From NCBI GenBank assembly GCA_965655095.1, contig OZ296649.1, positions 13,268,001-13,332,000 on the forward strand: a stretch of DNA of 64,000 nt. The letters run 5' to 3'. Shown here one piece after another: positions 1-44,767 of the stretch (position 1 is the first letter of the stretch; each line of letters starts with the position of its first letter). This DNA comes from Haplodiscus bocki (taxonomy: Eukaryota). The position numbers and the translations under genes were made by a program. A model generated the notes under the pieces. That model ran no database searches. It was not told the DNA's origin and saw nothing but the letters and a program-made list of their open reading frames with translations.

Positions 1-3000
1 CCAATGCCAATTTTGAACATTTTGTTTCGTTTTTTCCACATTAGAACTTAATGATCAAACATAAACATAAAACAACTTTCACCATCAAAAGGTTTTAGAA
101 CATCTAAATCCCTTTTCTTTCCTCATCACTCATTTTACGATTCTATCTCAATTTCAATTTAGAAACAAAACAAAGAAACCGCTGCGTGCGGTACTGTGTC
201 AACCCTTGCGACTGTTTGAAATTCAAAAGCCAATAACTTGAAAAAATGATTTGATACGTTTTTGAGTTTAAACTCTAATACTATGGTGTTTTTGACGTTT
301 TTATTGATTTTAGAACTATGATCTTAACTTTAATTTTTGAACTTCTGTGGCTGTTTTTCTTTGGACTACTACTGGGTTTTCTGTTTACAAATAAACATCC
401 ATTTCCATATTTCGAACTTTTAGCTACTTTTTTTGAGATTTTACTAAACACAATCACGATCCACAGAATCACACAAGACATGATTTCCGGCAAAACAAAA
501 GGTTTGATGTCTTTGCTGTATTGTCAAACTTTCCATGTAATTGTATATCTAATGCTTTCCACTGAGATAAAATACACACTCCACAATGCAAGTTTTGGCG
601 ATTGGTTTAAGATCCCTCACACAATAAATATCTGTAACACTAGTTTGTTACTCTGATTTTTAGCGATATTCATTTTGATTACCTTCCTCGAAAGCTGCTT
701 CGTCATGAAATAAATTGCAATGAATTCTGTCAAAGTTTAGTTCCATTGGATTTAGCTACGTATCATGATGATGGGTGTGTCAGATTTGTGTTTTTATCGT
801 GTCTTCCACATTGTTTGTTCGTTCTACCAACGATTGCAATACGTCCAATTCCATCTTTCACTTGTTATGTGAGTTCATAAACTTTCATACTGGCACGTCA
901 AAAAGATTCTGCATCTGCTCTTTCAAGAAAAAATCCAACGTTGAAAACAACTTCAAGTTTTTTCATTTATATGCTCTTTGAATTGATTTTCCAACAACAT
1001 CAAGAAGATGAACATGGGATATTTTTTCTTCAATTTGTCTTTCCTATGCAGCTTGTTTTCTTTTGTCCATTTGTTTTTCTTGAAATAGTTTTTTAAGTGG
1101 TTGGTTTCTAAAATTCATCGAGAAAAATTTAGTATCGTTTTTGCGGTTTTTTCTTCAGGGTCAAGAAGCCTCTTTAAGGAATTCATGTTCATTTCAGTAA
1201 ATTTCATTACTTTGGCCTCAACTTGTTTGTGTCCAGGAAGTATTACTTCGGGTGACATAATTTTTTATTTAAAGAACGGCAATCAATTTTATTCAAAACT
1301 TTGAACATCAACTGATCTAGGTAATTAATCTATTATACCTTCTCAAATTACAGATGAAATATCCATTTTAGTATAAATTGATTCACATTCAACCATCGCA
1401 CTCTGATTTGAGCTTTTAGCATCATAAGCCATTACCCAGTCATCTCTTCGAGATGGGTTGGCTTCGCCAATGTCTAGTTTTGAGTCAACTATTTTTCTCC
1501 GCTTCAGGCAACTCATTTATTTTCTCATTTGCACTTTTGTATGACTCTTCCGGAAAGTTAGTGTCTACTCATCGATCATTTTTTGATAATCTTACTTTTA
1601 CATTTTTGCACAGTTTTGTAAAAAAGACAAAACTATCAAGAACATTAAAAAAATTATATCTGTTTTTATTTTATATTCTTGCTCAAGGTTTTTCAAAGTA
1701 ATTTGAGCCAGAGAAGGTCCGAAAATTTAATCGACTGGTCCATCTTCATAGGCGTCATTCGATTGACCAAAAAAAGCTCCAAATACTTATAAAAAAAGTA
1801 CCATAAACATCCTCTCCGTTACCAGTGCTTCTTTCCTTAATAGAAAAATCCGTCCTAAAGAAGATACTTAAAAATAACTTTCCCCCCACAACTTTGCCAT
1901 GTCATGCTTGTTCTTCTAAGTCTAGGGTGTAACTCCGCTAAGGTTGATACGTTCAATGCTTCTTAAAGCTGCCAATCAAATCGTTTTTTTCATCAACAAT
2001 TTTCTTTACATATCTTCATGCCTTTAATTGTTTTTTAATAACTCATCCTGTAATTAAAATGTTTCTCCCAAAATTCTGAGTGGTCTTTTCGTTTTGTTCA
2101 TGCTACGACAAAATGAAATAAGTTGCAGATATTTTTCGGATAAAATTTCAAATTTTGAATTAGATTCAATACCAGTATTTACTTTCGAAACGAAAAGACC
2201 TTTACCAGCAGGAAGATTTTCTGAAAAGTCTTGTCAAAGTAGTAAATGATTTATATTCGAAAGTTCAAAAAGTTGCAACAAGTTTTGAGCAAACTAAATT
2301 TTTTTCAGAGCCAGAACAACTTCCAATGCCAATTTTGAACATTCTGTTTCGTTTTTTCCACATTAGAACTTAATGATCAAACATAAACATAAAACAACCT
2401 TCAAGATCAAAAGGTTTTAGAACATCTAAACCGCTTTTCTTTCCTCATCACTCATTTTACGATTCCATCTCAATTTCAATTTAGAAACAAAATGAAGAAA
2501 CCGCTGCGTTCGGTACTGTGTTATTTCTTTCGACTGTTTGAAATTCAAGAGCCAATAACAAAAAAAGCTGATTTGATACCCTTTTGAGTTCAAACTCTAA
2601 TCCTGTGGTGTTTCTGACGTTTTTAATGTTTTTAGAACTATGATTTTAATTTTATTTCTTATCCTTCTGTGGCTGTTTTTCTTTGAACTACAATATGGTT
2701 TTCTGTATACAAATAAACAACCATTTCTATATTTCGAACATTTAGCTACTTTTTTTTGAGATTTTACTAAACACAATCGCGATCCACAGAATCACACAAG
2801 ACATGATTTCCGGCAAAACAAAAGATTTGATATTTTTGATGTATTGTCAATTTTTCTATGTATTTGTATATCTAATGTTTTCCACTGAGATAAAATACAC
2901 ATTCCACAATACAAGTTTTGGCGATCGGTTTAAGAGCCCTCACACAATAAATATCTGTAACACTAGTCTGTTAATCTGATTTTTAGCCATAATCACTTTG

Positions 3001-4826
3001 ATTACCTTCCTCGAAAGCTGCTTCGTCATGAAGTAAATTGCAATGAATTTTTTTCAAAGTTTACTTCCATTGGATTTAGCTACGTCTCATGATGATGGGT
3101 GTGTCAGATTTGTGTTTTTATCGTGTCTTCCACATTGTTTGTTCGTTCTACCAACGATTGCAATAGGTCCAATTCCATCTTTCACTTGTTATGTGAGTTC
3201 ATAAACTTTCATACTGGCACTTCAAAAAGACTCTGCATCTGCACTTTCATGAAAATATCCAACGTTGGAAACAAATTCAATTTTTTTCATTTATATGCTC
3301 TTTGAATTGATTTTCCAACAACATCAAGAAGATGAACATCGGATATTTTTTCTTCAATTTGTCTTCCCTATGCAGATTGTTTTCTTTTGTCCATTTGTTT
3401 TTCTCGAAATAGTTTTTTAAGTGGTTGGTTTCTAAAACTCATCGAGAAAACTTTTCGAATCGTTTTTGCGGTTTTTTTTTCAGGGTCAAACACCTTTTTA
3501 AATAATTCATGTTCATTTCAGTAAATTTCATTACTTTGGCCTCAACTTGTTTGTGTCCAGTAAGTATTACTTCGGGTGACTTATTTTTTAAATTAAAGAA
3601 CGGCACTCAATTTTATATAAAACTTTGAACATCAACTGATCTAGGTAATTAATCAATTATACCTTCTCAAATTACAGATGCAAAATCCATTTTAGTATGA
3701 ATTGATTCACATTCAACCATCGCACTCTGATGTGAGCTTTTAGCATCATAAGCCATTACCCAGTCATTTCTCCGAGATGGGTTGGCTTCGCCAACGTCTA
3801 GTTTTGAGTCAACTATTTTTTTACGCTTCAGGCAACTCACTTATTTTCTTATTTACACCTTTGTATGACTCTTCCGGAAAGTTAGTGTCTACTCATCGAT
3901 CATTTTTGGAGAATCCTACTTTTGCATTTTTGCACAGTGTTGTAAAAAAGACATAACTACCAAGAATAATAAAAAAATGTAAATCTGTTTTTATTTTATA
4001 TTCTTGCTCAAGGCTTTTCAAAGTTATTTGAGCCAGAGAAGGTCCATAAAATTAGACAACTGGTCCATCTTCATAGGCGTCATTCGATCGACCAATAAAA
4101 GCTCCAAATACTTATGAAAAAAATACCATAAACATCTTCTCCGTTACCAGTGCTTCTTTCCTTAATATAAAAATCCTTCCTAAAAAAGATACCTAAAAAA
4201 CTATTTTTCGCCCACAAATTTGCCATGTCTTGCATGTTCTTCTAAGTCTAGGGTGTAACTCCGCCAAGCTTGATACGTTCAATGCTTCTTAAAGCTGCCA
4301 GTCAAATCGTTTTTTTCATCAACAGTTTTCTTTACATATCTTCATGCCTTTAATTGTTTTTTAAAAACTGAACCTGTAATTAAAAAGTTTCTCCCAAAAT
4401 TCTGAGTGGTTTTTTCGTTTTATTCATGCTACGACAAAATGAAATAAGTTGCAGACATTTTTCGGACAAATTTTCAAATTTTGAATTAGATTCAATACCA
4501 GTATTCACTTTCGAAACGAAAAGACCTTTACCAGCGGGAATGTTTTCTGAAATGTCTCGTCAAAGTAGTAAATGATTTATATTTGAAAGTTCAAAAAGTT
4601 GCAACGAGTTTTGATTAAACTAAATTATTTTAGAGACAGTACAATATCCAAAGTCAATCTTGAGCAATTTGTTTCTTTTTTTTCCACATTAGAATTTTTT
4701 GATCAAACATAAACATAAAACAACCTTCAACACCAGAAGATTTTAGAACATCTAAACCCCTTTTCTTTCTTCATCACTCACTTTACGATTCCATCTCAGT
4801 TTCAATTTAGAAACAAAATGAAGAAA

Positions 4827-5717
4827 CCGCTGCGTGCGGTACTGTGTTATTTCTTTCGACTGTTTGAAATTCAAAAGCCAATAACAAAAAAGCTGATTTG
4901 ATACCTTTTGGAGTTCAAACTCTAATCCTATGGTGTTTCTGACATTTTTGTTGATTTTAGAACTTTGATTTTAACTTTATTTCTTATCCTTCAGAGGCTG
5001 TTTTTCTTTGAACTACAATATGGTTTTCTGTATACAAATAAACAACCATTTCTATATTTCGAACATTTAGCTACTTTTTTTTGAGGTTTTGCTAAACACC
5101 ATCACGATCCACAGAATCACACAAGACATGATTTCCAGGATAGCAATAGATTTGATTTCTTTGCTGTTTTGTCAAACTTTCTATGTATTTGTATATCTAA
5201 TGTTTTCCACTGAGATAAAAAACACATTCCACAATACAAGTTTTGGCGATTGGTTTAAAACCCTGCACACAATAAATATCTGTAACACTAGTCAATTAAT
5301 CTGAATTTTAGCCATATTCATTTTGATTAACTTCCTCGAAAGCTGCTTCGTCATGAAGTAAATTGCAATGAATTTGTTTCAAAGTTTACTTCCTTTGGAT
5401 TTAGCTACGTCTCATGATGATTGATGTGTCCAAATTTGTGTTTTTATCGTGTCTTCCACATTGTTTGTTCGTTCTACCAATGATTGCATTACGTCCAATT
5501 CCATCTTTCACTTGTTATGTGAGTTCATACGTTTTCACACTGGCACTTCAAAAAAACTCTGCATCTGCACTTTCAAGAGAAAATAAACAATGAATGAAAA
5601 TGAACATAAAACAACCTTCAACATCAAAAAGTTTTAAAACATATAAATGCTTTATCTTTCTTCATTACTCATTTTACGATTCCATCTCAATTTCAATTTA
5701 GAAACAAAATAAAGAAA
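4827..5717. repeat. Internally deleted monomer (891 bp, ~1.44 kb lost) with 18-bp filler at the junction
   Basis: TTTCAAGAGAAAAT (ends 5584) is joined through AAACAATGAATGAAAATG (5585-5602) to AACATAAAACAACC (starts 5603), which lies ~1.44 kb further on in full monomers. Confidence 0.92.
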
Positions 5718-8700
5718 CCGCTGCGTGCGGTACCGTGTCAACCCTTGCGACTGTTTGAAATTCAAAAGCCAGTAACTTGAAAAAATGATTTGATACGTTT
5801 TTGAGTTTAAACTCTATTACTATGGTGTTTTTGACGTTTTTAATGATTTTAGAACTGACTTTAATTTTATGTTTTGACCTTCTGTGGCTGTTTTTCTCTG
5901 GACTACTACTGGGTTTTCCGTATACAATTAAACATCCATTTCCATATTTCGAACAAATAGCTACTTTTTTTGAGATTTCACTCAACACAATCACGATCAA
6001 CAGAATCACACAAGACATGTTTTCCGGCAAAACAAAAGAATTGATTTTTTTGCTTTATTGTCAAACTTTCTAGGTATTTGTATATCTAATGTTTTCCACT
6101 GAGATAAAATACACATTCCACAATACAAGTTTTGGCGATTGGTATATGACCCTCCATACATTAAATATCTGTAACACTAGTCTGTTATTCTGATTTTTAG
6201 CCATATTCATTTTGATTAACTTTTTCGAAAGCTGCTTCGTCATGAAGTAAATTGCGATGAATTATTTCAAAGTTTACTTCCATTGGATTTAGCTACGTCT
6301 CATGATGATCGATGCGTCAGATTTGTGTTTTTATCGTGACTTCCACATTGTTTGTTCGTTCTACCAACGATTGCAATACGTCCAATTCCATCTTTCACTT
6401 GTTATGTGAGTTCAAACATTTTCACACTGGCACTTCAAAAAAACTCTGCATCTGCACTTTCAAGAAAAAATCCAACGTTGAAAACAACTTCAAGTTTTTT
6501 CTTTTATATGCTCTTTGAATTGATTTTCCAACAACATCAAGAAGATGAACATCGGATATTTTTTCTTCAATTTGTCTTTCCTATGCAGATTGTTTTCTTT
6601 GGTCCATTTGTTGTTCCTGATTTAGTTTTTTAAGTTGTTGGTTTCAGAAACTCATCGACAAAACATTTAGAATTGTTTTTGCGGTTTCTTCTTCAGGTTC
6701 AAATGCCTTTTTAAGGAATTCATGTTCACTTCAGTAAGTTTCAATACTTTGGCCTCAACTTAAATCTGTCCAGGAAGTATTAGTTCGGGTGACATAATTT
6801 TTATTTATAGAACGGCATTAAATTTTTTTTAAATCTTTGAACATCAGCTGATCTAGGTAAATAATCAATTATACCATCTCAAATTACAGATGCAAAATCC
6901 ATTTTAGTATGAATTGATTCACATTCAACCATCGCACTCTGATTTGAGCTTTTAGCATCATAAGCCATTACCCAGTCATCTCTTTGAGATGGGTTGGCTT
7001 CGCCAATGTCTAGTTTTGTGTCAACTATTTTTTCCGCTTCAGGCTACTCACTTATTTTCTCAATTACACTTTTGTATAACTCTTTCGGAAAGTTAGTGTT
7101 TACTCATCGACCATTTTCTGATAATCTTCCTTTTACATTTTTGTACAGTTTGGTAAAAATGACATAACTATCAAGAATATAAAAAAGTAAATGTGTTTTT
7201 TGTTTATATTCCGGCTCGAGGCTTTTCAAAGTAATTTAGCCAGAGAAGGTCCAAAGTTTTGATCGACTGGTCCATCTTCATAAGCGTCAATCGATCGACC
7301 AAAAAAAATTCCAAACACTCATGAAAAAGTTACCATAAACATCCTCTCCGTTACCAGTGCTTCTTTCGTCAATTAAAAAATCCTTCCTAAAGAAGATACT
7401 TAAAATACAAATTTCCCCCCACAAATTTGTCATGTCTTGCATGTTCTTCTAAGTCTAGAGTGTAACTCCGCTAAGTTTGATACGTTCAATGCTTCTTAAA
7501 GCTGCCAATCAACTCGTTTTTTTCATCAACAGTTTTCTTTACATATCTTCATGCCTTTAATTGTTTTTCAAAAACTGATCCTGTAATTAAAAAGTTTCTC
7601 CCAAAATTCTGAGTGGTCTTTTCGTTTTATTCATGCTACGACAAAATGAAATAAGTTGCAGACATTTTTCGGATAAATTTTCAAATTTTGAATTAGATTC
7701 AATACCAGTATTTACTTTCGAAACGAAAAGACGTTTACCAGCAGGAATATTTTCCGAAATGTCTTGTCAAAGTAGTAAATGATTTATAATCGAAAGTTCA
7801 AAAAATTGCAACGAGTTTCGAGCAAACTAATTTTTTTCAGAGGCAGTACAACTTCCAATGCCAATTTCGAACATTTTGTTTCCTTTTTTCCAAATTAGAA
7901 CTTAATGATCAAACAGAAACATAAAACAACCTTCAACATCAAAAAGTTTCAAAACATATAAACGCTTCATCTTTCTTCATTACTCATTTTACGATTCCAT
8001 CTCAATTTCAATTTAGAAACAAAATAAAGAAACCGCTGCGTGCGGTACTGTGTCATTCCTTTCGACTGTTTGAAATTCAAAAGCTAACAACCTAAAAAGC
8101 TGATTTGATACGTTTTTGAGTTTAAACTCTAATACTATGGGGTTTTTGACGTTTTTATTGATTTTAGAACTGACTTTAACTTTATTTTTTGACCTTCTGT
8201 GGCTGTTTTTCTTTGGACTACTACAGGGTTTTCCGTATACAAATAAACATCCATTTCCATATTTCGAACAAAAAGCTACTTTTTTTGAGATTTTACTCAA
8301 CACAATCACGATCAACAGAATCAGACAAGACATGTTTTCCGGCAAAACGAAAGATTTGATTTTTTTGCTCTATTGTCAAACTTCTAGGTATTTGTATATC
8401 TAATGTTTTCCACCGAGAAAAAATACACATTCCACAATACAAGTTTTGGCGATTGGTATATAACCCTCCATACATTGAATATCTGTAGCACTAGTCTGTT
8501 ATTCTGATTTTTAGCCATATTCATTTTGATTAACTTTTTCGAAAGCTGCTTCGTCATCAAGTTAATTGCGATGAATTATGTCAAAGTTTACTTCCATTGG
8601 ATTTAGCTACGTCTCATGATGATCGATGTGTCAGATTTGTGTTTTTATCGTGTCTTCCACATTGTTTGTTCGTTCTACCAACGATTGCAATATGTCCAAT

Positions 8701-9929: not shown

Positions 9930-12900
9930 CTTTTCGTTTTATTCATGCTACGACAAAATGAAATAAGTTGCAGACATTTTTTGGATGAATTTTCATATTT
10001 TGAATTAGATTCAATACCAGCATTTACTTTCGGAACGAAAAGACCTTTACCAGCAGGAATAGTTTCCAAAAAGTCTCGTCAAAGTAGTAAATGATTTATA
10101 TTTGAAAGTTCAAAAAGTTGCAACGAGTTTTGGGCAAACTAATTTATTTTAGAGGCAGTACATTTTCCAAAGCCAATCTTGAGCAATTTGTTTGTTTTCC
10201 ACATTAGAATTTATTGATCAAACATAAACATAAAACAACCTCCAACACCAAAAGGTTTTAGAACATCTAAACCCTTTTTCTTTCTTCATCACTCATTTTA
10301 CGATGCCATCTCAGTTTCAATTTAGAAACAAAATAAAGAAACCGCTGCGTGCGGTACTGTGATATTTCTTTCGACTGTTTGAAATTCAAAGGCCAAAAAC
10401 AAGAAAGCTGATTTGATACCATTTTCAGTTCAAACTCTAATCCTATGGTGTTTCTGACATTTTTAATGATTTTAGAACTTTGATTTCAACTTTTTTTCTT
10501 ATCCTTCAGTGGCTTTTTTTCTTTGAACTACAATATGGTTTTCTGTATACAAATAAACAACCATTTCTATATTTCGAACATTTAGCTACTTTTTTTTGAG
10601 ATTTTGCTAAACACCATCACGATCCACAGAATCACACAAGATATGATTTCCGGCAAAACAAAAGGTTTGATATCTTTGCTGTATTGTCAAACTTTCTATG
10701 TATTTGTATATCCAATGTTTTCCACTGAGATAAAATACACATTCCACAATACAAGTTTTGGCGATTGGTTTAAGTCGCCTCACACAATAAATATCTGTAA
10801 CACTAGTTTGTTACTCTGATTTTTAGCGATATTCATTTTGATTAACTTCCCCGAAAGCTGCTTCATCATGAAATAAATTGCAATGAATTATGTGAAAGTT
10901 TACTTCCATTGGATTTAGCTACGTCTCATGATGATCGATGTGTCAGATTTGTGTTTTTATCGTGTCTTCCACATTGTTTGTTCGTTCTACCAACGATTGC
11001 GATACGTCCAATTCCATCTTTCACTTGTTATGTGAGTTCATAAACTTTCATACTGGCACTTCAAAAAAACTCTGAATCTGCACTTTCAAGAAAAAATCCA
11101 ACGTTGAAAACAACTTCAAGTTTTTTCTTTTATATGCTCTTTGAATTGATTTTCCAACAACATCAAGAAGAAGAACATCGGATATTTTTTCTTCAATTTG
11201 TTTTTCCTATGCAGATTGTTCTCTTTTGTCCATTTGTTGTTCTTGAATTAGTTTTTTAAGTAGTTGGTTTCTGAAATTCGTCGAGAAAACGTTTAGACTC
11301 GTTTTTGCGGCTTTTTGTTCAGGGTCAAATGCCTTTTTAAGGAATTCATGTTCACTTCAGAAAATTTCATTACTTTGGCTTAAACTTGTTTGTGTCCAGG
11401 AAGTATTACTTCGGGTGACATAATTTTTTAATTAAAGAACGGCAATCAATTTTATTTGAAACTTTGAACATCAGCTGATCTAGGTAAATAATCAATTATA
11501 CCATCTCAAATTACAGATGCAAAATCCATTTTAGTATGAATTGATTCACATTCAACCATCGCACTCTGATGTGAGCTTTTAGCATCATAAACCATTACCC
11601 AATCATCTTTTCGAAATGGGTCGGCTTCGCCAATGTCTAGTTTTGAGTCAACTATTTTTTCCGCTTCAGGCAACTCACTTATTTTCTCAATTACACTTTT
11701 GTATGACTCTTTCGGAAAGTTAGTGTTCACTCATCGACCATTTTCTGATAATCTTCCTTTTACATTTTTGTACAGTTTGGTAAAAATGACATAACTATCA
11801 CGAAAAAAAAAGTAAATCTTTTTTTATCTTACATTCCTGCTCAAGGCTTTTCAAAGTAATTTGAGCCAGAGAAGGTCCAAAAATTTAATCGACTGGTCCA
11901 TCTTCATAGGCGTCAATCAATCGACCAAAAAAAATCCAAACACTCATGAAAAAAATACCATAAACATCCTCTGCGTTACCAGTGCTTCTTTCCTTAATAG
12001 AAAAATCCGTCCTAAAGAAGATACTTAAAAAAATTTTTCCCCCGCAAAGTTGCCATGTCTTGCATGTTCTTCTAAGTCTAGGGTGTAACTCCGCCAAGGT
12101 TGATACGTTCAATGCTTCTTAAAGCTGCCAATCAAATCGTTTTTTTCATCAACAGTTTTCTTTACATATCTTCATGCCTTTAATTGTTTTTTAAAAACTG
12201 ATCCTGTAATTGAAAAGTTTCCCAAAATTCTGAGTGGTCCTTTCGTTTTTTTCAAGCTACGACAAAATGAAAAAAGTTGCAGACCTTTTTCGGATAAATT
12301 TTCAAACTTTGAATTAGATTCAATACCAGTATTTACTTTCGAAACGAAAAGACGTTTACCAGCAGGAATATTTTCCGAAATGTCTTGACAAAGTAGTAAA
12401 TGATTTGTAATCGAAAGTTCATAAAATTGCAACGAGTTTTGAGCAAACTAATTTTTTTCAGAGGCAGAACAAATTCCAATGCCAATTTTGAACATTTTGT
12501 TTCCTTTTTTCCAAATTAGAGCTTAATGATCAAACATAAACATAAAACAACCTTCAACATCAAAAAGTTTTAAAACATATAAACGCTTCATCTTTCTTCA
12601 TTACTCATTTTACGATTCCATCTCAATTTCAATTTAGAAACAAAATAAAGAAACCGCTGCGTGCGGTACTGTGTCATTCCTTTCGACTGTTTGAAATTCA
12701 AAAGCCAATAACCTAAAAAGCTGATTTGATACGTTTCTGAGTTTAAACTCTAATACTATGGTGTTTTTGACGTTTTTATTGATTTTAGAACTATGACTCT
12801 AACTTTATTTTTTGACCTTCTGTGGCTGTTTTTCTTTGGACTACTACTGGGTTTTCCGTATACAAATAAACATCCATTTCCATATTTCGAACAAAAAGCT

Positions 12901-30499: not shown

Positions 30500-33400
30500 T
30501 GCTTCTTTCCTTAATAGAAAAATCCGTCCTAAAGAAGATACTTAAAAAAATTTTTCCCCCGCAAAGTTACCATGTCTTGCATGTTCTTCTAAGTCTAGGG
30601 TGTAACTCCGCCAAGGTTGATACGTTCAATGCTTCTTAAAGCTGCCAATCAAATCGTTTTTTTCATCAACAGTTTTCTTTACATATCTTCATGCCTTTCA
30701 TTGTTTTTTAAAAACTGATCCTGTAATTGAAAAGTTTCCCAAAATTCTGAGTGGTCCTTTCGTTTTTTTCAAGCTACGACAAAATGAAAAAAGTTGCAGA
30801 CATTTTTCGGATAAATTTTCAAATTTTGAATTAGATTCAATACCAGTATTTACTTTCGAAACGAAAAGACCTTTACCGGCAGGAATTTTTTCTGAAATGT
30901 CTTGTCAAAGTAGTAAATGATTTATATTCGAAAGTTCAAAAAGTTGCAGCGAGTTTTGAGCAAACTAAATTTTTTCAGAAGCAGTACAATTTCCAATGCC
31001 AATTTTGAACATTTTGTTTCCTTTTTTTCACATTAGAACTTAATGATCAAACATAAACATCAAACAACATTCAACATCAAAAGGTTTTAGAACATCTAAA
31101 ACCCTTTTATTTCCCCATCACTTATTTTACGATTCCATCTCAATTTCAATTTAGAAACAAAATGAAGAAACCGCTGCGTGCGGTACTGTGTTATTTCTTT
31201 CGACTGTTTGAAATTCAAAAGCCAATAACAAAAAAGCTGATTTGATATCCTTTTGAGTTCAAACTCTAATCCTGTGGTGTTTCTGACGTTTTTATTGATT
31301 TTAGAACTATGATTTTAACTTGAATTTTTGACCTTTTGTGGCTGTTTTTCTTTGGACTACTACTGGGTTTTCTGTATACAAATAAACATCCATTCCCATA
31401 TTTCAAACAAAAAGCTACGTTTTTTGAGGTTTTACTCAACACAACCACGATCAACAGAATTACACAAGACATGATATCCGGCAAAACAAAACATTTGATT
31501 TCTATGCTCAATTGTCAAACTTTCTAGGTATTTGTATATCTAATGTTTTCTATGAGATGAAATACACATTCCACAATACAAGTTTTGGCGATTGGACTTT
31601 AACCTTTCACACAATAAATATCTGTAACACTAGTCTGTTAATCTGATTTTTAGCCATATTCATTTTGAAAAATTTCTTCGAAATCTGCTTCGTCATGAAG
31701 TAAATTGCAATGAATTTTTTTCAAAGTTTGTTTCCATTGGATTTAGCTATGTCTCATGATGATTGATGTGTCCAAATTTGTGTTTTTATCGTGTCTTCCA
31801 CCTTGTTTGTTCGTTCTACCAATGATTGCATTACGTCCAATTCAATCTTTCACTTATTATGTGAGTTCATAAGTTTTCACACTGGCACTTCAAAAAAACT
31901 CTGCACCTGCACTTTCAAGAAAAAATCCAACGTTGAAGACAACTTCAAGTTTTTTCTTTTGTTTGCTCTTTGAATTGATTTTCCAACAACATCAAGAAGA
32001 TGAACATCGGATATTTTTTCTTCAATTTGTTTTTCCTATGCAGATTGTTCTCTTTTGTCCATTTTTGTTCTTGAATTAGTTTTTTAAGTTGTTGGTTTCT
32101 GAAATTCGTCGAGAAAACGTTTAGACTCGTTTTTGCGGCTTTTTCTTCAAGGTCAAATGCCTTTTTAAGGAATTCATGTTCATTTCAGTAAATTTCATTA
32201 CTTTGGCTTCAACTTGTTTGTGTCGAGGAAGTATTACTTCGGGTGACATAATTTTTTAACTAAAGAACGGCAATCATTTTTATTTGAAACTTTGAACATC
32301 AGCTGATCTAGGTAAATAATCAATTATACCTTCTCAAATTACAGATGCAAAATCCATTTTAGTGTGAATTGATTCACAATCAACCATCGCACTCTGATGT
32401 GAGCTTTTAGCATCATAAACCGTTACCCAGTCATCTCTTCGAGATGGGTTGGCTTCGCCAATGTCTAGTTTTGAGTCAACTTTTTTTCCGCTTCAAGCAA
32501 CTCACATTTTTTCTCATTTACTCTTTTGGCTGACTCTTCCGGAAAGTTAGTGTCTACTCATTGATCATTCTTTGATAATCTTACTCTTACATTTTTGCAC
32601 AGTTTTGTAAAAAAGACATAACTATCAAGAATAAAAAAAGTAAATCTTTTTTTATTTTACTTTCCTGCTCAAGGCTTTTCAAAGTAATTTGAGCCAGAGA
32701 AGGTCCAAAAATTTGATCGACTGGTCCATCTTCATAAGCGTCAATAGGTCGACCAACAAAAGCTCCAAACACTTATGAAAAAAATACCATGAACATCCTC
32801 TGCGTTACCAGTGCTTCTTTCCTTAATAGAAAAATCCGTCCTAAAGAAGATACTTAAAAAAATTTTTCCCCCGCAAAGTTACCATGTCTTGCATGTTCTT
32901 CTAAGTCTAGGGTGTAACTCCGCCAAGGTTGATACGTTCAATGCTTCTTAAAGCTGCCAATCAAATCGTTTTTTTCATCAACAGTTTTCTTTACATATCT
33001 TCATGCCTTTAATTGTTTTTTAAAAACTGATCCTGTAATTGAAAAGTTTCTCCCAAAATTTTGAGTGGTTTTCTCGTTTTAAACATGCAACGACAAAATG
33101 AAATAAGTTGCAGACATTTTTCGGATAATTTTTCAAATTTTGAATTACATTCAAAACCAGTATTTACTTTCGAAACGAAAAGACCTTTACCAGCAGGAAT
33201 TTTTTCTGAAATGTCTTGTCAAAGTAGTAAATGTTTTATATTCGAAAGTTCAAAAAGTTGCAGCGAGTTTTGAGCAAACTAAACTTTTTCAGAAGCAGTA
33301 CAACTTCCAATGCCAATTTTGAACGTTTTGTTTCCTTTTTTCCACATTAGAACTTAATGATCAAACATAAACATCAAACAACCTCCAACATCAAAAGGTT

Positions 33401-36400
33401 TTAGAACATCTAAACCTCTTTTTCTTTCCTCATCACTCATTTTACGATTCCATCTCAATTTCAATTTAGAAACAAAATGAAGAAACCGCTGCATGCGGTA
33501 CTGTGTTATTTCTTTCGACTGCTTGAAATTCAAAAGCCATTAACAAAAAAAGCTGATTTGATATCCTTTTGAGTTCAAACTCTAATCCTGTGGTGTTTCT
33601 GACGTTTTTATTGGTTTTAGAACTATGATTTTAACTTGAATTTTTGACCTTTTGTGGCTGTTTTTCTTTGGACTACTACTGGGTTTTCTGTATACAAATA
33701 AACATCCATTCCCATATTTCGAACAAAAAGCTACTTTTTTTGAGGTTTTACTCAACACAATCACGATCAACAGAATTACACAAGACATGACTTCCGGCAA
33801 AACAAAACATTTGATTTCTCTGCTCAATTGTCAAACTTTCTAGGTATTTGTATATCTAATGTTTTCCACTGAGATGAAATACACATTCCACAATACAAGT
33901 TTTGGCGATTGGTTTTTAACCCTCCACACAATAAATATCTGTAACACTAGTCTGTTAATCTGAATTTTAGCCATATTCATTTTGAAAAATTTCTTCGAAA
34001 GCTGCTTCGTCATGAAGTAAATTGCAATGAATTATGTCAAAAGTTACTTCCATTGGATTTAGTTACGTCTCATGATGATCGATGTGTCCAAATTTGTGTT
34101 TTTATCGTGTCTTCCACATTGTTTGTTCGTTCTACCAACGATTGCGATACGTCCAATTCCATCTTTCACTTGTTATGTGAGTTCATAAACTTTCATACTG
34201 GCACTTCAAAAAAACTCTGAATCTGCACTTTCAAGAAAAAATCCAACGTTGAAAACAACTTCAAGTTTTTTCTTTTATATGCTCTTTGAATTGATTTTCC
34301 AACAACATCAAGAAGATGAACATCGGATATTTTTTCTTCAATTTGTTTTTCCTATGCAGATTGTTCTCTTTTGTCCATTTTTGTTCTTGAATTAGTTTTT
34401 TAAGTTGTTGGTTTCTGAAATTCGTCGAGAAAACGTTTAGACTCGTTTTTGCGGCTTTTTCTTCAAGGTCAAATGCCTTTTTAAGGAATTCATGTTCATT
34501 TCAGTAAATTTCATTACTTTGGCTTCAACTTGTTTGTGTCGAGGAAGTATTACTTCGGGTGACATAATTTTTTAACTAAAGAACGGCAATCATTTTTATT
34601 TGAAACTTTGAACATCAGCTGATCTAGGTAAATAATCAATTATACCTTCTCAAATTACAGATGCAAAATCCATTTTAGTGTGAATTGATTCACAATCAAC
34701 CATCGCACTCTGATGTGAGCTTTTAGCATCATAAACCGTTACCCAGTCATCTCTTCGAGATGGGTTGGCTTCGCCAATGTCTAGTTTTGAGTCAACTTTT
34801 TTTCCGCTTCAAGCAACTCACTTTTTTTCTCATTTACTCTTTTGGCTGACTCTTCCGGAAAGTTAGTGTCTACTCATTGATCATTCTTTGATAATCTTAC
34901 TCTTACATTTTTGCACAGTTTTGTAAAAAAGACATAACTATCAAGAATAAAAAAAGTAAATCTTTTTTTATTTTACTTTCCTGCTCAAGGCTTTTCAAAG
35001 TAATTTGAGCCAGAGAAGGTCCAAAAATTTGATCGACTGGTCCATCTTCATAAGCGTCAATAGGTCGACCAACAAAAGCTCCAAACACTTATGAAAAAAA
35101 TACCATGAACATCCTCTGCGTTACCAGTGCTTCTTTCCTTAATAGAAAAATCCGTCCTAAAGAAGATACTTAAAAAAATTTTTCCCCCGCAAAGTTACCA
35201 TGTCTTGCATGTTCTTCTAAGTCTAGGGTGTAACTCCGCCAAGGTTGATACGTTCAATGCTTCTTAAAGCTGCCAATCAAATCGTTTTTTTCATCAACAG
35301 TTTTCTTTACATATCTTCATGCCTTTAATTGTTTTTTAAAAACTGATCCTGTAATTGAAAAGTTTCTCCCAAAATTTTGAGTGGTTTTCTCGTTTTAAAC
35401 ATGCAACGACAAAATGAAATAAGTTGCAGACATTTTTCGGATAATTTTTCAAATTTTGAATTACATTCAAAACCAGTATTTACTTTCGAAACGAAAAGAC
35501 CTTTACCAGCAGGAATTTTTTCTGAAATGTCTTGTCAAAGTAGTAAATGTTTTATATTCGAAAGTTCAAAAAGTTGCAGCGAGTTTTGAGCAAACTAAAC
35601 TTTTTCAGAAGCAGTACAACTTCCAATGCCAATTTTGAACGTTTTGTTTCCTTTTTTCCACATTAGAACTTAATGATCAAACATAAACATCAAACAACCT
35701 CCAACATCAAAAGGTTTTAGAACATCTAAACCTCTTTTTCTTTCCTCATCACTCATTTTACGATTCCATCTCAATTTCAATTTAGAAACAAAATGAAGAA
35801 ACCGCTGCATGCGGTACTGTGTTATTTCTTTCGACTGCTTGAAATTCAAAAGCCATTAACAAAAAAAGCTGATTTGATATCCTTTTGAGTTCAAACTCTA
35901 ATCCTGTGGTGTTTCTGACGTTTTTATTGGTTTTAGAACTATGATTTTAACTTGAATTTTTGACCTTTTGTGGCTGTTTTTCTTTGGACTACTACTGGGT
36001 TTTCTGTATACAAATAAACATCCATTCCCATATTTCGAACAAAAAGCTACTTTTTTTGAGGTTTTACTCAACACAATCACGATCAACAGAATTACACAAG
36101 ACATGACTTCCGGCAAAACAAAACATTTGATTTCTCTGCTCAATTGTCAAACTTTCTAGGTATTTGTATATCTAATGTTTTCCACTGAGATGAAATACAC
36201 ATTCCACAATACAAGTTTTGGCGATTGGTTTTTAACCCTCCACACAATAAATATCTGTAACACTAGTCTGTTAATCTGAATTTTAGCCATATTCATTTTG
36301 AAAAATTTCTTCGAAAGCTGCTTCGTCATGAAGTAAATTGCAATGAATTATGTCAAAAGTTACTTCCATTGGATTTAGTTACGTCTCATGATGATCGATG

Positions 36401-39400
36401 TGTCCAAATTTGTGTTTTTATCGTGTCTTCCACATTGTTTGTTCGTTCTACCAACGATTGCGATACGTCCAATTCCATCTTTCACTTGTTATGTGAGTTC
36501 ATAAACTTTCATACTGGCACTTCAAAAAAACTCTGAATCTGCACTTTCAAGAAAAAATCCAACGTTGAAAACAACTTCAAGTTTTTTCTTTTATATGCTC
36601 TTTGAATTGATTTTCCAACAACATCAAGAAGATGAACATCGGATATTTTTTCTTCAATTTGTTTTTCCTATGCAGATTGTTCTCTTTTGTCCATTTTTGT
36701 TCTTGAATTAGTTTTTTAAGTTGTTGGTTTCTGAAATTCGTCGAGAAAACGTTTAGACTCGTTTTTGCGGCTTTTTCTTCAAGGTCAAATGCCTTTTTAA
36801 GGAATTCATGTTCATTTCAGTAAATTTCATTACTTTGGCTTCAACTTGTTTGTGTCGAGGAAGTATTACTTCGGGTGACATAATTTTTTAACTAAAGAAC
36901 GGCAATCATTTTTATTTGAAACTTTGAACATCAGCTGATCTAGGTAAATAATCAATTATACCTTCTCAAATTACAGATGCAAAATCCATTTTAGTGTGAA
37001 TTGATTCACAATCAACCATCGCACTCTGATGTGAGCTTTTAGCATCATAAACCGTTACCCAGTCATCTCTTCGAGATGGGTTGGCTTCGCCAATGTCTAG
37101 TTTTGAGTCAACTTTTTTTCCCGCTTCAAGCAACTCACTTTTTTTCTCATTTACTCTTTTGTCTGACTCTTCCAGAAAGTTAGTGTCTACTCATTGATCA
37201 TTCTTTGATAATCTTACTCTTACATTTTTGCACAGTTTTGTAAAAAAGACATAACTATCAAGAATAAAAAAAGTAAATCTTTTTTTATTTTACTTTCCTG
37301 CTCAAGGCTTTTCAAAGTAATTTGAGCCAGAGAAGGTCCAAAAATTTGATCGACTGGTCCATCTTCATAAGCGTCAATAGGTCGACCAACAAAAGCTCCA
37401 AACACTTATGAAAAAAATACCATGAACATCCTCTGCGTTACCAGTGCTTCTTTCCTTAATAGAAAAATCCGTCCTAAAGAAGATACTTAAAAAAATTTTC
37501 CCCCGCAAAGTTACCATGTCTTGCATGTTCTTCTAAGTCTAGGGTGTAACTCCGCCAAGGTTGATACGTTCAATGCTTCTTAAAGCTGCCAATCAAATCG
37601 TTTTTTTCATCAACAGTTTTCTTTACATATCTTCATGCCTTTCATTGTTTTTTAAAAACTGATCCTGTAATTGAAAAGTTTCCCAAAATTCTGAGTGGTC
37701 CTTTCGTTTTTTTCAAGCTACGACAAAATGAAAAAAGTTGCAGACATTTTTCGGATAAATTTTCAAATTTTGAATTAGATTCAATACCAGTATTTACTTT
37801 CGAAACGAAAAGACCTTTACCGGCAGGAATTTTTTCTGAGATGTCTTGTCAAAGTAGTAAATGATTTATATTCGAAAGTTCAAAAAGTTGCAGCGAGTTT
37901 TGAGCAAACTAAATTTTTTCAGAAGCAGTACAATTTCCAATGCCAATTTTGAACATTTTGTTTCCTTTTTTTCACATTAGAACTTAATGATCAAACATAA
38001 ACATCAAACAACATTCAACATCAAAAGGTTTTAGAACATCTAAACCCCTTTTCTTTCCCCATCACTTATTTTACGATTCCATCTCAATTTCAATTTAGAA
38101 ACAAAATGAAGAAACCGCTGCGTGCGGTACTGTGTTATTTCTTTCGACTGTTTGAAATTCAAAAGCCAATAACAAAAAAGCTGATTTGATATCCTTTTGA
38201 GTTCAAACTCTAATCCTGTGGTGTTTCTGACGTTTTTATTGATTTTAGAACTATGATTTTAACTTGAATTTTTGACCTTTTGTGGCTGTTTTTCTTTGGA
38301 CTACTACTGGGTTTTCTGTATACAAATAAACATCCATTCCCATATTTCAAACAAAAAGCTACGTTTTTTGAGGTTTTACTCAACACAACCACGATCAACA
38401 GAATTACACAAGACATGATATCCGGCAAAACAAAACATTTGATTTCTATGCTCAATTGTCAAACTTTCTAGGTATTTGTATATCTAATGTTTTCTATGAG
38501 ATGAAATACACATTCCACAATACAAGTTTTGGCGATTGGACTTTAACCTTTCACACAATAAATATCTGTAACACTAGTCTGTTAATCTGATTTTTAGCCA
38601 TATTCATTTTGAAAAATTTCTTCGAAATCTGCTTCGTCATGAAGTAAATTGCAATGAATTTTTTTCAAAGTTTGTTTCCATTGGATTTAGCTATGTCTCA
38701 TGATGATTGATGTGTCCAAATTTGTGTTTTTATCGTGTCTTCCACCTTGTTTGTTCGTTCTACCAATGATTGCATTACGTCCAATTCAATCTTTCACTTA
38801 TTATGTGAGTTCATAAGTTTTCACACTGGCACTTCAAAAAAACTCTGCACCTGCACTTTCAAGAAAAAATCCAACGTTGAAGACAACTTCAAGTTTTTTC
38901 TTTTGTTTGCTCTTTGAATTGATTTTCCAACAACATCAAGAAGATGAACATCGGATATTTTTTCTTCAATTTGTTTTTCCTATGCAGATTGTTCTCTTTT
39001 GTCCATTTTTGTTCTTGAATTAGTTTTTTAAGTTGTTGGTTTCTGAAATTCGTCGAGAAAACGTTTAGACTCGTTTTTGCGGCTTTTTCTTCAAGGTCAA
39101 ATGCCTTTTTAAGGAATTCATGTTCATTTCAGTAAATTTCATTACTTTGGCTTCAACTTGTTTGTGTCGAGGAAGTATTACTTCGGGTGACATAATTTTT
39201 TAACTAAAGAACGGCAATCATTTTTATTTGAAACTTTGAACATCAGCTGATCTAGGTAAATAATCAATTATACCTTCTCAAATTACAGATGCAAAATCCA
39301 TTTTAGTGTGAATTGATTCACAATCAACCATCGCACTCTGATGTGAGCTTTTAGCATCATAAACCGTTACCCAGTCATCTCTTCGAGATGGGTTGGCTTC

Positions 39401-42400
39401 GCCAATGTCTAGTTTTGAGTCAACTTTTTTTCCGCTTCAAGCAACTCACTTTTTTTCTCATTTACTCTTTTGGCTGACTCTTCCGGAAAGTTAGTGTCTA
39501 CTCATTGATCATTCTTTGATAATCTTACTCTTACATTTTTGCACAGTTTTGTAAAAAAGACATAACTATCAAGAATAAAAAAAGTAAATCTTTTTTTATT
39601 TTACTTTCCTGCTCAAGGCTTTTCAAAGTAATTTGAGCCAGAGAAGGTCCAAAAATTTGATCGACTGGTCCATCTTCATAAGCGTCAATAGGTCGACCAA
39701 CAAAAGCTCCAAACACTTATGAAAAAAATACCATGAACATCCTCTGCGTTACCAGTGCTTCTTTCCTTAATAGAAAAATCCGTCCTAAAGAAGATACTTA
39801 AAAAAAATTTTCCCCCGCAAAGTTACCATGTCTTGCATGTTCTTCTAAGTCTAGGGTGTAACTCCGCCAAGGTTGATACGTTCAATGCTTCTTAAAGCTG
39901 CCAATCAAATCGTTTTTTTCATCAACAGTTTTCTTTACATATCTTCATGCCTTTAATTGTTTTTTAAAAACTGATCCTGTAATTGAAAAGTTTCTCCCAA
40001 AATTTTGAGTGGTTTTCTCGTTTTAAACATGCAACGACAAAATGAAATAAGTTGCAGACATTTTTCGGATAATTTTTCAAATTTTGAATTACATTCAAAA
40101 CCAGTATTTACTTTCGAAACGAAAAGACCTTTACCAGCAGGAATTTTTTCTGAAATGTCTTGTCAAAGTAGTAAATGTTTTATATTCGAAAGTTCAAAAA
40201 GTTGCAGCGAGTTTTGAGCAAACTAAACTTTTTCAGAAGCAGTACAACTTCCAATGCCAATTTTGAACGTTTTGTTTCCTTTTTTCCACATTAGAACTTA
40301 ATGATCAAACATAAACATCAAACAACCTCCAACATCAAAAGGTTTTAGAACATCTAAACCTCTTTTTCTTTCCTCATCACTCATTTTACGATTCCATCTC
40401 AATTTCAATTTAGAAACAAAATGAAGAAACCGCTGCATGCGGTACTGTGTTATTTCTTTCGACTGCTTGAAATTCAAAAGCCATTAACAAAAAAAGCTGA
40501 TTTGATATCCTTTTGAGTTCAAACTCTAATCCTGTGGTGTTTCTGACGTTTTTATTGGTTTTAGAACTATGATTTTAACTTGAATTTTTGACCTTTTGTG
40601 GCTGTTTTTCTTTGGACTACTACTGGGTTTTCTGTATACAAATAAACATCCATTCCCATATTTCGAACAAAAAGCTACTTTTTTTGAGGTTTTACTCAAC
40701 ACAATCACGATCAACAGAATTACACAAGACATGACTTCCGGCAAAACAAAACATTTGATTTCTCTGCTCAATTGTCAAACTTTCTAGGTATTTGTATATC
40801 TAATGTTTTCCACTGAGATGAAATACACATTCCACAATACAAGTTTTGGCGATTGGTTTTTAACCCTCCACACAATAAATATCTGTAACACTAGTCTGTT
40901 AATCTGAATTTTAGCCATATTCATTTTGAAAAATTTCTTCGAAAGCTGCTTCGTCATGAAGTAAATTGCAATGAATTATGTCAAAAGTTACTTCCATTGG
41001 ATTTAGTTACGTCTCATGATGATCGATGTGTCCAAATTTGTGTTTTTATCGTGTCTTCCACATTGTTTGTTCGTTCTACCAACGATTGCGATACGTCCAA
41101 TTCCATCTTTCACTTGTTATGTGAGTTCATAAACTTTCATACTGGCACTTCAAAAAAACTCTGAATCTGCACTTTCAAGAAAAAATCCAACGTTGAAAAC
41201 AACTTCAAGTTTTTTCTTTTATATGCTCTTTGAATTGATTTTCCAACAACATCAAGAAGATGAACATCGGATATTTTTTCTTCAATTTGTTTTTCCTATG
41301 CAGATTGTTCTCTTTTGTCCATTTTTGTTCTTGAATTAGTTTTTTAAGTTGTTGGTTTCTGAAATTCGTCGAGAAAACGTTTAGACTCGTTTTTGCGGCT
41401 TTTTCTTCAAGGTCAAATGCCTTTTTAAGGAATTCATGTTCATTTCAGTAAATTTCATTACTTTGGCTTCAACTTGTTTGTGTCGAGGAAGTATTACTTC
41501 GGGTGACATAATTTTTTAACTAAAGAACGGCAATCATTTTTATTTGAAACTTTGAACATCAGCTGATCTAGGTAAATAATCAATTATACCTTCTCAAATT
41601 ACAGATGCAAAATCCATTTTAGTGTGAATTGATTCACAATCAACCATCGCACTCTGATGTGAGCTTTTAGCATCATAAACCGTTACCCAGTCATCTCTTC
41701 GAGATTGGTTGGCTTCGCCAATGTCTAGTTTTGAGTCAACTTTTTTTCCGCTTCAAGCAACTCACTTTTTTTCTCATTTACTCTTTTGGCTGACTCTTCC
41801 GGAAAGTTAGTGTCTACTCATTGATCATTCTTTGATAATCTTACTCTTACATTTTTGCACAGTTTTGTAAAAAAGACATAACTATCAAGAATAAAAAAAG
41901 TAAATCTTTTTTTATTTTACTTTCCTGCTCAAGGCTTTTCAAAGTAATTTGAGCCAGAGAAGGTCCAAAAATTTGATCGACTGGTCCATCTTCATAAGCG
42001 TCAATAGGTCGACCAACAAAAGCTCCAAACACTTATGAAAAAAATACCATGAACATCCTCTGCGTTACCAGTGCTTCTTTCCTTAATAGAAAAATCCGTC
42101 CTAAAGAAGATATTTAAAAAAATTTTTCCCCCGCAAAGTTACCATGTCTTGCATGTTCTTCTAAGTCTAGGGTGTAACTCCGCCAAGGTTGATACGTTCA
42201 ATGCTTCTTAAAGCTGCCAATCAAATCGTTTTTTTCATCAACAGTTTTCTTTACATATCTTCATGCCTTTAATTGTTTTTTAAAAACTGATCCTGTAATT
42301 GAAAAGTTTCTCCCAAAATTTTGAGTGGTTTTCTCGTTTTAAACATGCAACGACAAAATGAAATAAGTTGCAGACATTTTTCGGATAATTTTTCAAATTT

Positions 42401-42610
42401 TGAATTACATTCAAAACCAGTATTTACTTTCGAAACGAAAAGACCTTTACCAGCAGGAATTTTTTCTGAAATGTCTTGTCAAAGTAGTAAATGTTTTATA
42501 TTCGAAAGTTCAAAAAGTTGCAGCGAGTTTTGAGCAAACTAAACTTTTTCAGAAGCAGTACAACTTCCAATGCCAATTTTGAACGTTTTGTTTCCTTTTT
42601 TCCACATTAG
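30500..42610. repeat. Higher-order block 2: trimer period 6944 bp (X-Y-Y, X-Y-partial Y), very homogeneous
   Basis: Identical ORFs 31266/38210, 31791/38735, 33582/35898/40526, 33061/35377/40005/42321. Diagnostic ATGCCTTTCATTG at 30691 and 37635. Confidence 0.92.
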
Positions 42611-42619
42611 ACTTTAATG

Positions 42620-43918
42620 ATCAAACATAAACATAAAACAACCTTCAACATCAAAAGTTTTTACAACATATAAACGCTTTTTCTTCCTTCATTACTCATT
42701 TTACGATTCCATCGCAATTTCAATTTAGAAACGAAATAAAGAAACCGCTGCGTGCGGTACTGTGTTGTTTCTTTCGACTGTTTGAAATTCAGGAGCCATT
42801 AACTTAAAAAGTGGATTTGATACGTTTTTGAGTTTAAACTCTAGTACTATGGTGTTTCTGACGTTTTTATTGATTCTAGAACTATGATTTTAAGTTTAAT
42901 TCTTAATTTTCTGTGGCTGTTTTCCTTTGGACTGCTACTGGGTTCTCTGTATACAAATAAACATCCATTTCTGTATTCCGAACAATTAGCTACTTTTTGG
43001 GAGGTTTTACTCAACACAATCACGATCTACAGAATCACACAAGACATGATTTCCGGCAAAATAAAAGGTTTGATTTCTTTGCTGTATTGTCAAATTTTCT
43101 ATGTATTTGTATATCTAATGTTTTCGAATGAGATAAAATACACATTCAAGAATGCAAGTTTTGGCGATTGTTATTTAACTCTTCATACAATAAATATCTG
43201 TAGCACTAGTCCGTTAATCTGATCTTTAGCCATATTCATTTTGATTAACTTTTTCGAAAGCTGCTTCACCATGAAGTATATTGCAATGATATATGTCAAA
43301 GTTTACTTCTATTGGATTTAGCTACGTCTCATGATGATCTATGTGTCCAAATTTGTGTTTTTATCGTGTCTTCTACCTTGTTTGTTCGTTCTACTAATGA
43401 TTGCAATACGTCCAATTCCATCTTTTTTCTATTATGTGAGTTCATAATTTTTCACACTGGCACTTCAAAAAAACTCTGCAATTGCACTTTCAAGAAAAAA
43501 ACCAACGTTGAAAACAACTTCAATTTTTTTCTTTTTCATGCTCTGTGAATTGATTTTCCAACCACGTCAAGAAGATGAACATCGGGTATTTTTTCTTCAA
43601 TTTGTCTTTCCAATGCAGATTGTTTTCTTCCGTCGATTTGATGTTCCTGAAATAGTTTTTTTAGTGGTTGGTTTCTGAAGTTCATCGAGAAAACGTTTAG
43701 TATGGTTTTTGCGGTTTTTTCTTCAGGCTCAACTGCCTTTTTAAAGAGTTCACAAACACTGTTTGGTTTTTGTTTTTAATCATTATTTGTATCTCTTCTA
43801 CTAAATTCGACAAAAAAAATAGAAAAATTGAAGTGTCTAAAAACTGGACTTTTTTCGGAATTGGTCACAAATAAAGGGCCAAGACTTTTTCAAAATGCCT
43901 GTTATAGTTAATTTCCAT
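42620..43918 (-). pseudogene. Decayed gene of unknown family that gave rise to the monomer; 5' end in the unique flank, body in the terminal monomer
   Basis: From ATG at 43918: MEINYNRHFEKVLALYL*PIPKKVQFLDTSIFLFFLSNLVEEIQIMIKNKNQTVFVNSLKRQ, a frameshift, then VEPEEKTAKTILNVFSMNFRNQPLKKLFQEHQIDGRKQSALERQIEEKIPDVHLLDVVGKSIHRA*KRKKLKLFSTLVFFLKVQLQSFFEVPV*KIMNSHNRKKMELDVLQSLVERTNKVEDTIKTQIWTH. The minus strand is A-rich with K/E/N-rich codons. Confidence 0.65.
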
Positions 43919-43970
43919 TCATATATAGGAAAACTTTGTGTTTGATTGATGGTCGGTTTTTTCATAAGCA

Positions 43971-44300
43971 ATGGCTCCCCCACGTAAACTGTTTATTGAT
44001 TTCAAGCAAAAGACATTGGAAAATTTTTAGGTTCTCAGTACACAGTCTGAGCGAAAGAGACTCTTCCAGCTGGTTTTTGTTTTTATAGTATGTATTGCAT
44101 GCGTTTATTTCAACGAATTTCAAAAAGAACTGTTTTGGATTTTTTTGCTTAAAAAATGAACTAAAAGAAAAACAAAAACATGTGGAAGAAAAAGTTTAGA
44201 AACTTCGATTTGAATCAGTGAAGCTGCCACTCCTAAAAATGCAAGTGAAGAAAAACGTTGATAGTTCAGAAAAATCCCAAAGTACTGATTATTAAAATTA
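43971..44300 (+). pseudogene. Decayed small ORF divergent from the monomer-source gene
   Basis: MAPPRKLFIDFKQKTLENF*VLSTQSERKRLFQLVF..., later NELKEKQKHVEEKV*KLRFESVKLPLLKMQVKKNVDSSEKSQSTDY; contains stops and frameshifts. Confidence 0.4.
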
Positions 44301-44314
44301 TTAACTGAAATTTG

Positions 44315-44620: not shown

Positions 44621-44767
44621 ACTTAAAAATTCTGAGCTGTTCAAAACAATGATCAATGGGAAAAGCCTAGATTGTACCTTAGCAAATGATTCAGATTTAG
44701 CTACTGAAGATGGAAATGAATCAAGAACAAAATGTGAAAACGGAGATTAAAAAGCATATATTGTGCA

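What the first reader, a model, noticed from the sequence alone, without database searches (positions are those of the whole stretch)
1..43918. 2.3-kb macrosatellite built from a protein-coding gene, with the source gene's 5' end still attached
Seen: on the minus strand each monomer gives protein-like segments along its whole length with no obvious spacer (e.g. RFLYFVSKLKLRWNRKMSDEERKG, LDVLKPFDVEGCF, QDISENIPAGKGLFVSKVNTGIESNSKFENLSEK, FPKESYKSVIEKISELPEAEKIVDSKLDIGE). Homology ends at 43752, yet coding-like sequence continues into unique DNA up to an ATG at 43918. Inference: an internal 2.3-kb piece of a large intron-less gene, probably from a virus or giant transposon, was amplified in place. 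That fixes the true monomer boundary (after GAATTCA, e.g. 1185/1186) and shows a satellite at its site of origin.
Basis: partly seen in the sequence, partly recalled or inferred. Interest (0 to 1): 0.8.

Follow-up and report, generated by a model that had tools for sequence, protein, structure and literature searches.

The report
Tandem array inside dead Maverick polymerase
A 2.3-kb piece of the DNA polymerase gene of a long-dead virus-like transposon (a Maverick) was copied 21 times head to tail right where it lay, with the rest of the element still on both sides: a tidy but ordinary case of a tandem repeat born from a mobile element.

Summary
The array is real: 21 units of about 2,316 bp (19 full; two cut by one deletion), 47 kb, 86-100% alike, ending 3.4 kb left of the window. 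Both ends stop at the same unit phase. The unit is the first ~70% of a Maverick/Polinton protein-primed DNA polymerase gene (pPolB, minus strand). A profile of intact relatives matches the copies colinearly (positions 111-751 of 1083, r=0.9997), and the missing last third (764-1072) lies in unique DNA just beyond the left end. The 3' end is the attached one; the gene start projects inside the unit. Most or all of 43753-43918 belongs to a plus-strand protease gene, and the 'ATG at 43918' is the complement of one of its His codons. Further Maverick gene remnants follow to about 47,070. Stops shared by most copies show the gene was dead before amplification. No other copy of the unit was found in the genome. 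Most likely a neutral local array grown by unequal exchange. Satellites from TE coding sequence, including a Polinton CDS, are already described.

The parts
1..43752 (-). In-window part of the tandem array. The whole array is 47,197 bp, 21 units, and begins 3,445 bases upstream of the window at G000:C2:13264556 (L006:6556). Directly beyond that end, outside the window (L006:5593-6555, minus strand), lies the single-copy 3' third of the degraded pPolB gene (profile 764-1072)
1..1185 (-). In-window part of unit 2 (the unit begins at L006:8869)
3510..6722 (-). Two units fused by a deletion of about 1.4 kb (joint at 5583/5589); the joint is also in sequencing contigs of both samples laid
   Evidence: table 5c
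11349..25227 (-). Four-unit block duplication: 11349-13660 vs 20599-22909 differ at 17 columns, 13661-15976 vs 22910-25227 at 27; twins 15977-18287 and 18288-20598 differ at 2
29865..41436 (-). Youngest part: 32177-34492, 34493-36808 and 39121-41436 differ at 1-2 columns; 29865-32176 and 36809-39120 are 98% alike (three-unit period)
41437..43752 (-). Terminal unit, chimeric: inner half 99-100% like its neighbours, outer half (42612-43752) mostly 88-91% like its closest copy. Encodes degraded pPolB, profile positions about 1-751 of 1083 (113-750 matched in this copy)
43753..44143 (+).
44432..45389 (+). Degraded homologue of the 356/364-aa ORFs of intact Mavericks of this genome (penton-like by recall; identity not established)
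45480..45828 (+). Degraded homologue of a 137-aa Maverick ORF
46428..46785 (+). Weak match to a 148-aa Maverick ORF (iE 0.007-0.03)
46883..47071 (-). C-terminal piece of an A32-like packaging ATPase (iE 3e-5), cut by the assembly gap at 47155-47354

Best explanation
A Maverick/Polinton element of a lineage only distantly related to the intact copies now in this genome inserted here and decayed (shown: homology, shared stops). A 2.3-kb segment covering the first ~70% of its pPolB gene was then duplicated in tandem, with only one base shared between the two breakpoints (shown: edges; the repair or replication pathway is inferred). The two-copy seed grew to 21 units by unequal crossing-over or sister-chromatid exchange and gene conversion, in steps of one, three and four units, with one deletion (pattern shown, process inferred). 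The rest of the element stayed single-copy on both sides. The array makes no protein and most likely has no function.
For: Left flank hits 114 other loci in the genome, most with long open frames; one is DNA_pol_B_2, E 5.8e-19; tblastn of it against the flank gives E 2e-8. A profile of 35 full-length relatives gives 79 minus-strand domain hits of 10 bits or more in the array (overlapping pieces, not independent), none on the plus strand (best 3.0) and none in reversed translations (best 2.4); offset against profile position has slope 3.04 nt, r=0.9997, 121 points. Matches run to the unit edge (position 751) and resume in the flank at 764. Protease, penton-like and 137-aa ORF remnants on the right follow the order in an intact element. 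Of 27 in-frame stops in four profile-anchored segments, 9 are in all 19 copies and 18 in at least 16. Changes among 14 distinct copies are not raised at third positions: 0.37/0.40/0.32 per site, p=0.09. Twins, block periods and a chimeric end unit fit unequal exchange. Contigs of public runs hold a unit junction (one run), the deletion joint and the right edge.
Against: Single profile hits in a unit are weak (best 25.3 bits); the case rests on their colinearity. Profile positions 1-110 are unmatched. No integrase, major capsid gene or terminal inverted repeat was found for this element, and assembly gaps lie on both sides. Two other pPolB clades of this genome give no match at all. The codon-position test is diluted if segments contain frameshifts, and some counted stops may be off-frame. 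Only the right terminal unit shows a clearly divergent outer half. The runs laid may include the assembly's own sample.
Confidence: 0.88

Rival explanations
1. One reading: the unit is an internal piece and the gene's 5' end continues in unique DNA to an ATG at 43918.
For: An ATG lies there in the same phase as the start of the terminal unit. The N-terminal 110 profile positions are too variable to match, so a longer N-terminus is not strictly excluded.
Against: The frame has a stop at codon 18; no pPolB match right of 43752 (best 1.8 bits); the projected start is inside the unit; the plus strand is a protease gene whose His codon supplies the CAT.
Confidence: 0.05
2. The repeats arose while the element was alive, as concatemers or rearranged products of its own replication, and decayed later.
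For: The element encodes its own polymerase; one unit edge lies near the gene start.
Against: Stops shared by all or nearly all copies predate the copying; copies 1-2 columns apart show growth long after the gene died. Later homogenisation could spread stops, so the very first duplication cannot be dated.
Confidence: 0.05
3. The array is kept by selection, as a small-RNA source against Mavericks or as a chromatin or centromere-like element.
For: The genome holds many intact Mavericks; the locus is present in two samples and a second version about 10% diverged also carries at least the unit's edge.
Against: The intact relatives found are only about 25% identical in protein, too far for RNA targeting; DNA search finds no other copy of the unit beyond one weak 160-bp match; one small locus.
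Confidence: 0.06
4. Part of the array (the near-identical twins) is an assembly artefact.
For: Five units differ from a twin at only 1-2 columns; no contig laid spans the array.
Against: Most units differ by 5-14%; junction and deletion joints are in read contigs; public contigs of 19 and 22 kb each hold several versions of the same translated piece. At most the copy number is affected.
Confidence: 0.08

Closest known systems
Maverick/Polinton elements, degraded genomic fossils (PMC8097293, passages read)
   Same: pPolB, protease, ATPase and further module genes, intron-less, eroded by stops and frameshifts, no discernible terminal repeats; the paper reports 96% of vertebrate loci as degraded.
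   Different: Here most of pPolB is amplified 21-fold in place. Integrase and major capsid remnants were not found in the stretch searched. pPolB is head to head with the protease, unlike the intact element K examined here.
Locust satellite LmiSat34-299 (PMC4935994, passage read)
   Same: Tandem repeat with homology to a Polinton coding sequence.
   Different: 299-bp monomer; the passage gives no donor locus. This unit is 2.3 kb and still sits inside its donor.
Chenopodium CficCl-61-40 from the CACTA tnp2 domain (PMC7320549, abstract read)
   Same: Array derived from a transposon coding region and found attached to the parent gene.
   Different: About 40-bp monomer and a major genome-wide satellite; this is one small locus.
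Maize CRM1TR/CRM4TR (PMC3648361, abstract and section list read)
   Same: Large tandem repeats made wholly of a mobile element, homogenised locally, gene conversion invoked.
   Different: Derived from LTR/UTR of retrotransposons, not from a polymerase gene of a DNA element.

Membership tests
Maverick/Polinton (donor element) | [quoted passage not shown] | tested here: met
   Colinear match to relatives that carry PF03175
Maverick/Polinton (donor element) | Adenovirus-type cysteine protease | tested here: met
   iE 2e-8 to a profile of the 139-aa ORF of intact element K; that ORF has no Pfam or PDB hit but groups with Peptidase_C5 clusters in the Atlas, 0.94-0.96
Maverick/Polinton (donor element) | A32-like packaging ATPase | tested here: met
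   C-terminal piece only, iE 3e-5, next to an assembly gap; query family Pox_A32 E 5e-6
Maverick/Polinton (donor element) | Minor capsid protein (penton) | tested here: inconclusive
   Homologue of K's 356-aa ORF present (iE 6.5e-7), but its naming as penton is from recall; Pfam none, Atlas only unnamed viral clusters with low recognition
Maverick/Polinton (donor element) | Double jelly-roll major capsid protein | tested here: inconclusive
   No match at its expected place in L006 plus window; the element is cut by gaps at 47155-47354 and about 10.2-10.4 kb upstream of the window
Maverick/Polinton (donor element) | Retroviral-like integrase | tested here: inconclusive
   No match in L006 plus window; may be lost, too decayed or beyond the gaps
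Maverick/Polinton (donor element) | [quoted passage not shown] | tested here: inconclusive
   No match between 26.5 kb left and 20 kb right of the array; absence is common in degraded copies (PMC8097293 passage)
Satellite DNA / macrosatellite | Head-to-tail array of large units | tested here: met
   21 units of about 2.3 kb
Satellite DNA / macrosatellite | Local homogenisation and higher-order structure | tested here: met
   Twins, three- and four-unit periods, mosaic copies
Satellite DNA / macrosatellite | High copy number or spread to other loci | tested here: not met
   47 kb in a 1.5-Gb assembly; DNA and protein searches of the genome list only this locus plus one 160-bp match at E 4.5e-5; both score only the best candidates, so this is a lower bound
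Satellite DNA / macrosatellite | Heterochromatic or centromeric location | not testable with these tools
   No chromatin data; the array lies 13.3 Mb from the start of a 152-Mb contig

The most novel reading that the evidence does not exclude
The array is older than the split of two versions of this locus that differ by about 10%, is kept in both, and still turns over. It would then be an endogenous-virus gene retained by the host as a working tandem element (small-RNA source or chromatin landmark), with its full birth record (donor, both breakpoints, order of duplications) still readable.
Probability: 0.06. Interest if true: 0.65.

Novelty: new member of a known kind. Interest (0 to 1): 0.3.

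Why it matters
The origin of most tandem repeats cannot be traced. Here the donor gene, both breakpoints, the single-copy remainder and the order of later duplications are all visible, and the former reading frame gives an outside ruler for unit phase and for the order of decay and amplification. That makes it a clean test locus for unequal-exchange models, and shows that Maverick fossils can seed kilobase-unit arrays that sequence searches of single copies fail to recognise. It is not a new mechanism and shows no function.

Tried and rejected
Direct family scans of single-frame translations (stops as X) found nothing over cut-off in Pfam, only two weak E 0.002-0.06 matches in PHROGs, and nothing in phage records. 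phmmer of one frame against 1.84 billion proteins gave 3 hits, all 55-144-aa fragments from ENA contigs that hold the same array, read with W where the window has TGA: not true homologues, possibly the same organism or sample. A TGA- or TAR-reassigning code opens no frame. Stop depletion against 100 shuffles was no stronger than in two control regions. Early guesses from recalled motifs (KDZ transposase, PIF1 helicase/Helitron, DIRS RNase H) were dropped; none was backed by Pfam. The 30 best PF03175 loci of the genome (two clades) and a profile of them did not match the unit; the match came only from a third clade found with the left flank. No RNA holder listed. PDB sequence searches for the intact pPolB and protease gave nothing useful. 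No earlier finding of this scan matched. Seven literature searches listed no report of a pPolB-derived kilobase array inside its donor; I saw listings only, apart from the papers named. Supplements were not read; that of PMC4935994 may say which Polinton gene LmiSat34-299 comes from. The 5' surroundings of intact members of the matching clade were not obtained, so their gene order could not be compared.
Full report
Observation. The window lies at G000:C2:13268001-13332000 of a 1.5-Gb assembly. Repeated 20-mers recur at 2311-2318 bp and at multiples. blastn of the last unit gives end-to-end copies from 1 to 43752 and none beyond. Of 100 kb fetched upstream, only the nearest 3.4 kb hold copies; the array stops at L006:6556, at unit position 1. 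The array has 21 units over 47,197 bp: 19 full (2311-2324 bp) and two cut by one deletion (3510-6722). Full units are 86-100% alike. DNA and protein searches of the genome list no other copy apart from one 160-bp match at 70%, E 4.5e-5; these searches score only the best candidates.

Coding signal. No frame is open: the three minus phases carry 60, 38 and 43 stops shared by at least half of the copies, and a shuffle test gave no more depletion than control regions. Family scans and a search of 1.84 billion proteins did not identify the unit. The way in was the unique DNA. The right flank hit a dispersed family whose larger loci hold polymerase, integrase and ATPase remnants. One frame of the left flank hit 114 other loci, most with long open frames, at about 25% identity; one of them is DNA_pol_B_2 (E 5.8e-19) and aligns to L006:6375-5602, just beyond the array's left end (E 2e-8).

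The unit is pPolB. From 120 listed public relatives I took the 35 of at least 1020 aa for a profile of 1083 positions. Against single-frame pieces it matches every one of the 21 units on the minus strand at 4 bits or more, at positions 111-755, and the left flank at 764-1072 (best iE 4e-8). Controls: best plus-strand score 3.0 bits, best reversed-translation score 2.4, against 25.3 in the array and 28.6 in the flank; offset against profile position has slope 3.04 nt and r=0.9997 over 121 points. Two other pPolB clades of the genome do not match.

Which end is attached. Position 1 projects about 16-45 nt inside the unit; relatives have 122-184 residues before a motif (exact in 18 of 35) that the unit precedes with about 190 codons. 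Right of 43752 the best minus-strand score is 1.8 bits. The plus strand at 43874-44143 matches positions 39-130 of 132 of a protease profile (iE 2e-8), so that gene projects back to about 43760, and 43916-43918 is one of its His codons. The query ORF groups with adenovirus endoprotease clusters in the Atlas. After it come a penton-like remnant (name from recall; inconclusive), a 137-aa ORF homologue (iE 6e-7 with the single intact sequence; its profile partly rests on loci found with this flank), a weak 148-aa ORF match and an ATPase piece. The first three follow the order of intact element K, which carries pPolB, an rve integrase, a double jelly-roll capsid and an A32-like ATPase. Of 13 profiles searched over L006 plus the window, 6 gave matches at 43874-47071; integrase, major capsid and five others did not. 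No terminal inverted repeat was found.

History. Of 27 in-frame stops in four anchored segments (two overlap in part), 9 are in all 19 copies and 18 in at least 16; changes among 14 distinct copies (5 near-twins dropped) are 0.37, 0.40 and 0.32 per site at the three codon positions, p=0.09. So the gene was already broken and the copies drifted without protein-level constraint. The two breakpoints share one base. Neighbouring twins, a four-unit and a three-unit period and mosaic copies, and a right terminal unit whose outer 1.1 kb is mostly 88-91% like its closest copy while its inner half is 99-100% like its neighbours, fit unequal exchange with conversion; that reading is inference from established models (PMC9659126, passages read). 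Contigs of 4 runs (at most 2 samples, 1 study, possibly the assembly's own) show a unit junction in 1 run, the deletion joint in 3 and the right edge crossed by two versions about 10% apart.

Comparison and verdict. Tandem repeats from mobile-element coding regions are known: several cases in a review (PMC9659126, passages), a Polinton-CDS-related locust satellite (PMC4935994, passage), a tnp2-derived satellite attached to its parent (PMC7320549, abstract) and retrotransposon-derived arrays in maize (PMC3648361, abstract). Degraded Mavericks without terminal repeats are common (PMC8097293, passages). Passages of 10.1101/2021.06.02.446622 and PMC13130569 added nothing. My seven searches listed no pPolB array inside its donor. 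Verdict: real, explained, a new member of a known kind; interest 0.3.

Noticed in passing
L175:2409-3524 and L178:2409-3524: In two Mavericks of the matching pPolB clade the polymerase is followed by a separate 372-aa ORF; the L178 one has intein-splicing (E 1.8e-10) and LAGLIDADG homing-endonuclease matches.
   Followed up: no
G000 genome-wide (L077-L106, L169-L179): At least three divergent pPolB clades, many copies with open frames over 1,000 codons, and several near-complete Mavericks: a very Maverick-rich genome.
   Followed up: partly
L119-L121 (G000:C4:88364001-88394000): Two pPolB genes with three neighbouring ORFs each, 98% alike, face each other as a large inverted duplication around a shared insert; HSP90-like exons lie next to it (name from recall).
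   Followed up: no
L006:5226-5486: A 260-bp dispersed repeat just after the pPolB end matches 39 other listed loci at about 70% with little shared flank; nature unknown.
   Followed up: partly
L006:1922-2837 and L006:3836-4766: An older direct duplication of about 950 bp (65% alike) in the left flank.
   Followed up: no
43506-44732: Both samples hold a second version of this stretch about 10-13% different from the assembly: a very divergent haplotype or a paralogous copy.
   Followed up: no
47355-50771: 31-bp minisatellites at 47355-47713 and 50110-50771 in opposite orientation enclose a 28/56/112-bp array that flips strand at 48743/48744, like a foldback element.
   Followed up: no
51660-52549: An 890-bp stretch 87% alike to the insert in L119-L121, with a 246-codon frame open there.
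   Followed up: no
63247-63857: An 18/27/36-bp-period tandem array with an open minus-strand frame of 269 codons.
   Followed up: no
L182:5862-8903: A 1014-codon uninterrupted HIRA-like ORF next to Maverick K.
   Followed up: no
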